Assembly: GCA_964016885.1 (NCBI GenBank)
Contig: OZ024741.1
Coordinates: 55,738,001-55,802,000 of the forward strand
Length of the DNA stretch: 64,000 bases
Direction of reading: 5' to 3'
Source: Eledone cirrhosa
Lineage: Eukaryota
A program made the translations under genes and the position numbers. Positions 54,847-55,641 of the stretch are shown here, piece after piece. The notes below the pieces were generated by a model that did no database searches, had not been told where the DNA came from, and worked only from the letters and a program-made list of their open reading frames with translations. Each line of letters starts with the position of its first letter. Within the stretch, counting starts at the first letter, position 1.

Positions 54847-55641
54847 ATATGAGAGACGTAAGATAAGAAAATTGTAAAATTATAAAAAAAATTATAAAAT
54901 TGACTTACTTACTAAAATATCACTTCCAACTAATTAGTTTCTGGAATGGAGTAAATATATTTTCCGAAGAATATATAGAAAAGCATTCCGTCGTCAGGAA
55001 AGTCTATTTTCATGTAAGCTTCCAGGCATAGCGAGGACTCTGGAAACTTATTAAAAAATAATTCAGTGGAAAGGAAATAGCGAAGCGTGGACTGAAATCC
55101 TAGCCATTGAGAAAATCACTGCCTCTACGTCTGTGGCAAATTCAAAAAGAATCAATCACGTGACATCGAGGTCAATCAGTGGAAAGCGAGTTGTTATATA
55201 AGATATAAATTCTTTATAATTATCTCCAATTCATTTGTCGAGCAATATTGGCCATGACTACTGCTATAGTAGTAGGCAGGCCGCTGTCTTATTAACAACT
55301 CGCTTTCCACTGATTGACCTCGATGTCACGTGATTGATTCTTTTGAATTTGCCACAGACGTAGAGGCAGTGATTTTCTCATGGCTAGGATTTCAGTCCAC
55401 GCTTCGCTATTTCCTTTCCACTGAATTATTTTTTAATAAGTTTCCAGAGTCCTCGCTATGCCTGGAAGCTTACATGAAAATAGACTTTCCTGACGACGGA
55501 ATGCTTTTCTATATATTCTTCGGAAAATATATTTACTCCATTCCAGAAACTAATTAGTTGGAAGTGATATTTTAGTAAGTAAGTCAATTTTATAATTTTT
55601 TTTTATAATTTTATAATTTTCTTATCTTACGTCTCTCATAT
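54847..55641. mobile_element. Near-perfect 350-bp-arm palindrome carrying an intact hammerhead on each strand
   Basis: Arms 54847-55196 and 55293-55641. The motif ACTTTC-CTGACGA-C-GGAATG...TTC-TTCG-GAA...CATTCC-A-GAAA-CTAATTAG-TT-GGAAGT occurs at 55484-55565(+) and 54922-55003(-). Confidence 0.9.

What the first reader, a model, noticed from the sequence alone, without database searches (positions are those of the whole stretch)
54847..55641. Very young 800-bp palindrome with an intact hammerhead on both strands
The two ~350 bp arms differ at only a few positions around a ~96 bp spacer. Each carries a complete ribozyme (6-bp helix I, long helix II with a cUUCGg-capped tip, ACTAATTAGT helix III). 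A transcript in either direction would contain one ribozyme and could fold into a ~350 bp dsRNA. That makes it a candidate ADAR-editing or siRNA substrate, or a switch in which fold-back blocks cleavage.
Basis: partly seen in the sequence, partly recalled or inferred. Interest (0 to 1): 0.75.

Follow-up and report, generated by a model that had tools for sequence, protein, structure and literature searches.

The report
Back-to-back insertion of a ribozyme retroelement
The palindrome is one recent insertion of a 541-base non-coding repeat (over 2,200 ribozyme-motif copies in this genome) that often lands as two back-to-back arms ending at two different fixed sites, which likely means a Penelope-type transposon enzyme copies one RNA from both ends of a DNA break, so it is likely a transposition footprint and not a host switch.

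Summary
The palindrome is real, but the element is larger (54729-55641) and not unique. It is two head-to-head, 5'-truncated copies of a 541-nt tandem unit carrying a type I hammerhead motif (2,228 exact motif matches genome-wide), inserted in a (TA)n tract. Arms end at two fixed unit positions, A (81) and B (198). Of 49 head-to-head insertions, 40 are A+B, 9 have one other end, and none is A+A or B+B. The two arms of one insertion share alleles (4% vs 37% discordance at polymorphic sites). In 20 of 40, this one included, neither arm lies inside the other, which excludes simple fold-back. A sister family and a coding Penelope-like element in this genome follow the same rule. Best reading: a non-LTR retrozyme moved by Penelope-like machinery that likely primes both ends of a break on one RNA source. 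The ribozyme is a dimer-type variant with an extra C·A pair; cleavage is untested, Rfam has no match, and no parent element was found. Inverted copies with a one-sided tail are known in Penelope elements, and this scan noted the two-site rule on other DNA. The switch, ADAR or siRNA role is unsupported.

The parts
54729..55641 (.). Whole insertion: two head-to-head 5'-truncated copies of the 541-nt unit, in a (TA)n tract
   Evidence: the edges against (TA)n are ambiguous by a few nt
54729..55203 (-). Left arm, unit positions 267 to 541 and on to 198; ends at site B
   Evidence: 98% to a natural monomer from L024
55201..55641 (+). Right arm, unit positions 181 to 541 and on to 81; ends at site A
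54729..54846 (-). 117-nt 'tail' (unit 82-198) between the two end sites, present on one arm only
54740..54794 (-). Predicted long hairpin inside the tail, kept with compensating changes in the 560-nt sister family; candidate enzyme-binding signal (inferred)
55201..55203 (.). 3-nt overlap (microhomology) joining the two arms
55204..55286 (+). Apparent spacer: unit 184-266, present in the right arm only
55484..55565 (+). Type I hammerhead motif; predicted cut between 55559 and 55560
54922..55003 (-). Type I hammerhead motif, identical copy; predicted cut between 54928 and 54927
55325..55334 (.). GTCACGTGA element kept in the sister family; possible Pol II promoter box (E-box label recalled, function untested)
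54672..54728 (.). (TA)n target tract, left
55642..55659 (.). (TA)n target tract, right

Best explanation
This is one recent insertion of a 541-nt non-coding, hammerhead-bearing tandem repeat that likely spreads as a non-autonomous parasite of Penelope-like retrotransposons, whose enzyme likely cuts a (TA)n tract and copies one RNA source from both cut ends, one end starting at site A and the other at site B. Shown by sequence: the unit, its copy number, the (TA)n targets, the two fixed ends, the A+B pairing, the allele sharing between arms and the short overlaps at junctions. Inferred: transcription of tandem copies; dimer- or protein-assisted self-cleavage; a template that is continuous across the cut site (a circle or an uncleaved multimer); reverse transcription from both broken DNA ends; joining of the two cDNAs by microhomology. 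This copy has one hammerhead per arm, so it cannot release a unit-length RNA and is likely a dead end.
For: Family: 41 full-length matches at 97-100% among 40 of 2,351 candidates scored; 2,228 exact motif matches; cut-to-cut spacing mostly 539-542 nt, with a 522-nt subfamily. Ends: 119 of 124 scored A/B ends run into (TA)n. Of 49 head-to-head pairs, 40 are A+B, 9 have one other end, 0 are A+A and 0 B+B; in the position-ordered sample alone 31 of 37 are A+B and 6 have another end (p about 1e-9 for 31 of 31 under free pairing). Same source: arms 2.4% apart against a 6.3% median to other loci, and 46 shared rare alleles in 42 pairs; discordance at 51 polymorphic sites 4.2% within against 37.1% between insertions; 39 of 39 scorable pairs agree in a 20-nt indel. 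Not fold-back: in 20 of 40 A+B pairs, this one included, neither arm is contained in the other. Junctions overlap by 1 nt or more in 34 of 49 (BLAST edges). 54 of 128 arms exceed one unit. A 69%-identical sister family keeps both end sites (6 of 6 pairs with both ends in view are A+B) and has compensating changes in helix II, helix I and the tail hairpin. A coding Penelope-like family in this genome shows short+long ends, 41-56 nt apart, in 11 of 12 scored head-to-head pairs. Literature: inverted 5'-truncated copies, a one-sided tail and (TA)n bias (PMC8557442; PMC3846280); a purified Penelope-like enzyme cuts and extends both strands, starts at two internal sites and is predicted to be a dimer (PMC11167929).
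Against: No protein-coding parent homologous to the unit was found; the one coding family examined has an unrelated terminal repeat. No Rfam hammerhead match. The C·A pair and weak helix I are non-canonical, and 8 of 9 predicted frog retrozymes did not cleave in vitro (bioRxiv 10.64898/2026.07.22.740005). The published enzyme does not need hammerhead cleavage, so a circle is not required. Allele sharing could partly come from gene conversion between arms or from subfamilies active at different times. One pair (L083) is 11% divergent, and the partner arm was the closest sequence in only 14 of 42 pairs. The tail (117 nt) is much longer than the published 30-40 nt. The count of arms crossing the cut site (122 of 128) is inflated because loci were picked by the hammerhead region. 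One coding-family pair (L125) was long+long, with identical flanks, and contiguity of those pairs was not mapped.
Confidence: 0.8

Rival explanations
1. It is the same Penelope-dependent element, but the inversion arises by self-priming or fold-back: one cDNA (or an antisense template) folds on itself and is recopied, and the tail is trimmed at one end when the endonuclease resolves the intermediate.
For: Proposed for rotifer Penelopes (PMC3846280), with the tail attributed to endonuclease resolution (PMC8557442). It explains allele sharing. In 20 of 40 pairs one arm is contained in the other, and a few pairs have near-identical 5' ends (L041, L069, L077).
Against: In the other 20 of 40, this locus included, each arm holds sequence that the other lacks in register. 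The in vitro enzyme starts directly at two sites on both strands.
Confidence: 0.12
2. The two arms come from two independent RNA molecules or insertions and were later made alike by gene conversion.
For: Inverted repeats can convert each other (general knowledge). L083 has arms 11% apart with mixed common alleles.
Against: 0 of 39 scorable pairs mix the 20-nt indel state. Very young pairs already share rare alleles. It does not explain why A always pairs with B.
Confidence: 0.06
3. The palindrome is a host-selected RNA switch, or an ADAR or siRNA substrate, in which fold-back blocks ribozyme cleavage.
For: The duplex is predicted to outcompete the ribozyme fold by about 125 kcal/mol.
Against: The same architecture occurs at 49 of the 90 insertions mapped. 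The copy is very young, and nothing singles it out from its siblings.
Confidence: 0.03
4. It is an assembly or chimera artefact.
For: 4 of the 5 arm differences are 1-nt indels, which could be read errors.
Against: The arms are offset, end at the family's two fixed sites, sit in (TA)n and differ by a substitution. 48 other loci show the same design with different junctions, and two other families obey the rule.
Confidence: 0.02

Closest known systems
Metazoan non-LTR retrozymes (PMC7229834, passages read; bioRxiv 10.64898/2026.07.22.740005, parts 1-3 of 5 read)
   Same: Non-coding, low-GC tandem unit with one type I hammerhead per unit; dispersed monomers to multimers; more-than-unit insertions; proposed dependence on Penelope-like elements.
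   Different: The unit is 541 nt (170-400 nt RNAs in the first paper; consensus lengths 51-972 bp in the second). The hammerhead is the Penelope-type variant with an extra C·A pair. RNA, cleavage and circles are not shown here. The passages read do not describe head-to-head insertions with two paired end sites.
Insertions of endonuclease-bearing Penelope-like elements (PMC8557442 and PMC3846280, passages read)
   Same: Partial tandems, an inverted 5'-truncated copy at the 5' end, a tail at one end only, (TA)n targets and microhomology joins.
   Different: No ORF. The tail is 117 nt, not 30-40. The strict A+B pairing and same-source arms are counted here, and the published explanation is self-priming or endonuclease resolution.
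PAc/Poseidon of Anolis in vitro (PMC11167929, parts 1-2 of 4 read)
   Same: Two internal start sites delimit the tail. The first lies some 80-90 nt behind the hammerhead cut (81 here; 85-92 by subtracting the paper's figures). AT-rich target; both strands extended.
   Different: The paper found no start-site difference between strands and did not report pairing of the sites within one insertion; it studied a coding element.
Penelope-type minimal/variant hammerheads (PMC4209133, parts 1-2 of 4 read)
   Same: Type I topology, long helix II, an extra base after A9, a G-C pair at the base of helix II, and a short palindromic helix III suited to dimers.
   Different: A second extra base (A) lies before GAAA, kept in 285 of 285 passes (part of the sample was picked by a motif holding this base); helix I has 6 bp.
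LINE-1 twin priming (recalled, no paper read)
   Same: Both ends of the target break prime on one RNA and give a 5' inversion joined by microhomology.
   Different: Twin priming duplicates no sequence. Here both arms copy the same unit and start at two fixed sites, which needs a circular or multimeric template.

Membership tests
Metazoan non-LTR retrozyme | Tandem non-coding unit with one type I hammerhead per unit | tested here: met
   Units of 541, 522 and 560 nt; arrays of up to about 5 units in this family and about 13 in the sister family; no long ORF in the arm's six frames
Metazoan non-LTR retrozyme | Hammerhead core intact, with structural conservation | tested here: met
   CUGANGA intact in 127 of 143 passes; G-C to C-G swap in helix II and a matched shortening of helix I in the sister family; few independent events
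Metazoan non-LTR retrozyme | At least two consecutive hammerheads in one orientation at this locus ('active' by Li et al.) | tested here: not met
   One hammerhead per arm here; met by other loci of the family (L024, L047, L085)
Metazoan non-LTR retrozyme | Self-cleavage and linear or circular RNA in cells | not testable with these tools
   Needs transcription assays and RNA of this species
Canonical hammerhead (Rfam models) | Match to a curated covariance model | tested here: not met
   None at the gathering score or at E<=10
Penelope-like element insertion | Partial tandems and an inverted 5'-truncated copy | tested here: met
   49 head-to-head pairs; 54 of 128 arms longer than one unit
Penelope-like element insertion | Tail at one end only, between two start sites | tested here: met
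   40 A+B, 0 A+A, 0 B+B of 49; 117 nt long rather than 30-40
Penelope-like element insertion | AT-rich or (TA)n target | tested here: met
   119 of 124 ends
Autonomous Penelope-like element | ORF with reverse transcriptase and GIY-YIG endonuclease | tested here: not met
   No such ORF in the unit
Non-autonomous derivative of a given Penelope-like family | Homology to the terminal repeat of a coding partner | tested here: inconclusive
   Only one coding family was sampled (45 loci; 150 of 35,395 candidates scored) and it is not homologous

The most novel reading that the evidence does not exclude
Penelope-like enzymes work as a two-headed integrase: one dimer on one RNA circle primes both ends of a double-strand break, one subunit always at site A and the other at site B, and rolls round the circle. 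The head-to-head copies, the one-sided tail and the partial tandems would then be a single reaction, and this 541-nt unit a minimal substrate for it.
Probability: 0.35. Interest if true: 0.65.

Novelty: new member of a known kind. Interest (0 to 1): 0.4.

Why it matters
The locus itself is ordinary: one of many such insertions. The family matters as a test system. How Penelope-like elements make their tandem and inverted structures is called unresolved in PMC8557442, and circular templates for animal retrozymes are proposed but not shown in the passages read. The A+B rule, same-source arms and non-nested arms narrow the mechanism to two priming events on one RNA source, which can be tested with a purified protein. 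Arm-to-arm divergence can also date insertions, as LTR pairs do. As a by-product, the family scatters perfect inverted repeats that would give dsRNA wherever they are transcribed through.

Tried and rejected
Rfam: no hammerhead hit; the microRNA hits at E<=10 only reflect the palindrome.

Sequencing runs: no RNA holder listed. Laying 4 of the 23 listed runs on the junction gave no joint or piece that confirms this locus's junction; they were two sets of collapsed contigs and two RAD-seq runs, so this is uninformative either way. Three guessed-RNA runs matched only short or AT-rich parts of the unit, or nothing. A DNA-type run of another organism covers the unit and has a head-to-tail joint across the cut site.

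Parent search: the coding Penelope-like family of window 9699-10355 is not homologous to the unit. A 71%-identical copy proved to be a young non-coding sister family, not a parent. A short flank match at L014 was not followed.

The 1,215-aa ORF of the coding family hit nothing in Pfam, PDB or (above cut-off) NCBIfam; its assignment rests on recalled motifs.

A linear unit-length template is disfavoured: only 2 of 128 arm 5' ends lie within 5 nt of the cut site. Circle against uncleaved multimer could not be separated.

A sequence look-up in earlier findings returned nothing. Four literature searches that ran with Penelope, retrozyme or octopus terms (one search was for hammerhead variants) listed no paper on this family. 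Repbase, Dfam, most subscription journals and all supplements (for example the cephalopod element list of PMC8557442) were not seen and may hold it.

Full report
Observation. The inverted repeat is there: 54847-55203 pairs with 55287-55641, with one substitution and four 1-nt indels. Each arm holds the same hammerhead-like motif, reading outward (+ 55484-55565, - 55003-54922): helix I of 6 bp with one G-U, core CUGACGA and GAAA, a long helix II with a cUUCGg tip, a palindromic helix III and a GUU site. Rfam gives no hammerhead match at the gathering score or at E<=10.

It is a repeat family. The arm gave 41 full-length matches at 97-100% in the window's own 3.0-Gb genome, with 40 of 2,351 candidates scored. 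A 26-mer across the cut site occurs 2,228 times, the reversed control 0 times. Tandem copies give a cut-to-cut unit of mostly 539-542 nt, and a subfamily with a 20-nt deletion gives 522. Mapped on this unit, the left arm runs from position 267 through the cut site to 198 and the right arm from 181 to 81; they overlap by 3 nt. The unit has no long ORF.

Architecture across loci. I used 30 top-hit loci and the loci of all of the first 100 motif matches along contig C1, dropped 16 overlapping duplicates and added the window. Arms end at two positions, A (81) and B (198), scored within 5 nt; short-subfamily ends clipped by the indel were classed as A by their downstream letters. 119 of 124 scored A/B ends run into (TA)n. 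Of 49 head-to-head pairs, 40 are A+B, 9 have one end elsewhere, and none is A+A or B+B; in the position-ordered set alone 31 of 37 are A+B and 6 have another end. Single-direction copies end at A (26), B (13) or elsewhere (2). Junctions overlap by 1 nt or more in 34 of 49, are blunt in 8 and have extra bases in 7 (BLAST edges). 54 of 128 arms exceed one unit, and only 2 of 128 start within 5 nt of the cut site. 122 of 128 cross the cut site, but loci were picked by that region, so this figure is inflated.

One source per insertion. In 42 pairs with at least 80 shared positions, arms differ by 2.4% on average against a 6.3% median to other loci. They share 46 rare alleles, and the partner is the closest sequence in 14 of 42; L083 (11%) is an exception. 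The window pair differs at 1 of 372 positions. At 51 polymorphic sites discordance is 4.2% within and 37.1% between insertions, and 39 of 39 scorable pairs agree in the 20-nt indel. Gene conversion and subfamilies of different age may add to this. In 20 of 40 A+B pairs, the window's included, neither arm is contained in the other, so recopying one folded cDNA cannot make them.

Two controls in the same genome. A 560-nt sister family, 69% identical, young and with arrays of up to about 13 units, keeps both end sites; 6 of 6 pairs with both ends in view are A+B. It carries a G-C to C-G swap in helix II, a matched shortening of helix I and compensating changes in a hairpin inside the tail, while the cUUCGg tip is not kept. 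A coding family (1,215-aa ORF with reverse-transcriptase and GIY-YIG-like motifs, recalled; no library hit) has short and long ends 41-56 nt apart: 11 of 12 scored head-to-head pairs are short+long, one is long+long with identical flanks, and one further locus could not be scored. Its terminal repeat is unrelated to the unit, so the partner enzyme remains unidentified.

The ribozyme. The 5' core is intact in 127 of 143 passes. A C·A pair lies between core and helix II in 285 of 285 passes, overlapping loci counted more than once. Penelope-type hammerheads have an extra base after A9, a palindromic helix III, a need to dimerise and low activity in vitro (PMC4209133). The helix III palindrome forms a predicted -10.8 kcal/mol duplex. 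In an outward transcript helix II is predicted (0.96) and helix I is not (0.01). In a read-through transcript the duplex wins by about 125 kcal/mol. With one hammerhead per arm this copy cannot excise a unit. Activity is untested; 8 of 9 predicted frog retrozymes did not cleave.

Mechanism. Likely, a tandem locus is transcribed, and the RNA, circular or uncleaved multimer, is bound by a Penelope-like protein in trans. The endonuclease likely cuts both strands of (TA)n, each end primes reverse transcription on that RNA source, one at A and one at B, and the two cDNAs join by microhomology. All of these steps are inferred. They fit a purified Anolis enzyme that cuts and extends both strands, starts at two internal sites, is predicted to be a dimer and needs no hammerhead cleavage (PMC11167929).

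Known and new. Partial tandems, an inverted 5'-truncated copy, a 30-40-nt tail at one end and (TA)n bias are described for Penelope-like elements (PMC8557442; PMC3846280, which proposes self-priming). Animal non-LTR retrozymes and their proposed Penelope origin are described (PMC7229834; bioRxiv 10.64898/2026.07.22.740005). I read passages or parts of these papers, none whole, and no supplements. The listings showed no paper on this family, and the passages read do not state strict site pairing with same-source arms. This scan's earlier notes report the same two-site pattern in other families and genomes. I had stated my reading before seeing them, and they are not independent support.

Verdict. 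A real feature and a new member of a known kind. Interest is 0.4, for the testable mechanistic rule and not for this locus.

Noticed in passing
window 9699-10355 (+) and about 10580-10625: 3' part of a coding Penelope-like element (zinc-finger-like linker and GIY-YIG-like motifs, recalled) with its own hammerhead-like motif. The family is very abundant (35,395 candidates), has open frames up to 1,216 aa with an asparagine-rich stretch, and shows the same short+long end rule.
   Followed up: partly
window 48952-49015 (+) and about 11600-11660 (-): Two copies of another hammerhead-like family (helix I ATTCATT, palindromic helix III) that also has C after A9 and A before GAAA.
   Followed up: no
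window 9216-9280 (+): A further hammerhead-like motif with an 8-bp helix I and an AT palindrome as helix III.
   Followed up: no
L146-L175, e.g. G000:C3:9136090-9143316 and C1089:45337-50230: Young 560-nt sister retrozyme family with long head-to-head arrays (about 13 units); the best source-locus candidates.
   Followed up: partly
unit positions 16-25 and about 140-183 (window 55575-55584 +): GTAAGT donor-like motif just behind the cut site, and AG acceptor-like sites in the tail: a possible intron that would remove site A, as Penelope elements retain introns (speculative).
   Followed up: no
L006, L040, L043, L068, L109: Insertions of different subfamilies or families cluster in the same or neighbouring (TA)n tracts.
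   Followed up: no
L014:about 1190-1300 (-): A 10-nt match to the A-end motif beside a host exon with an EGF-like look; probably chance.
   Followed up: partly
window 31064-34185 (+) and 59249-61152 (-): LINE-type elements with endonuclease and reverse-transcriptase frames (RVT_1 hit for 31918-34182).
   Followed up: partly
window 23252-24793 (-): 513-aa open frame that looks like a host exon, with no Pfam hit; whether the insertion lies in this gene's intron was not determined.
   Followed up: no
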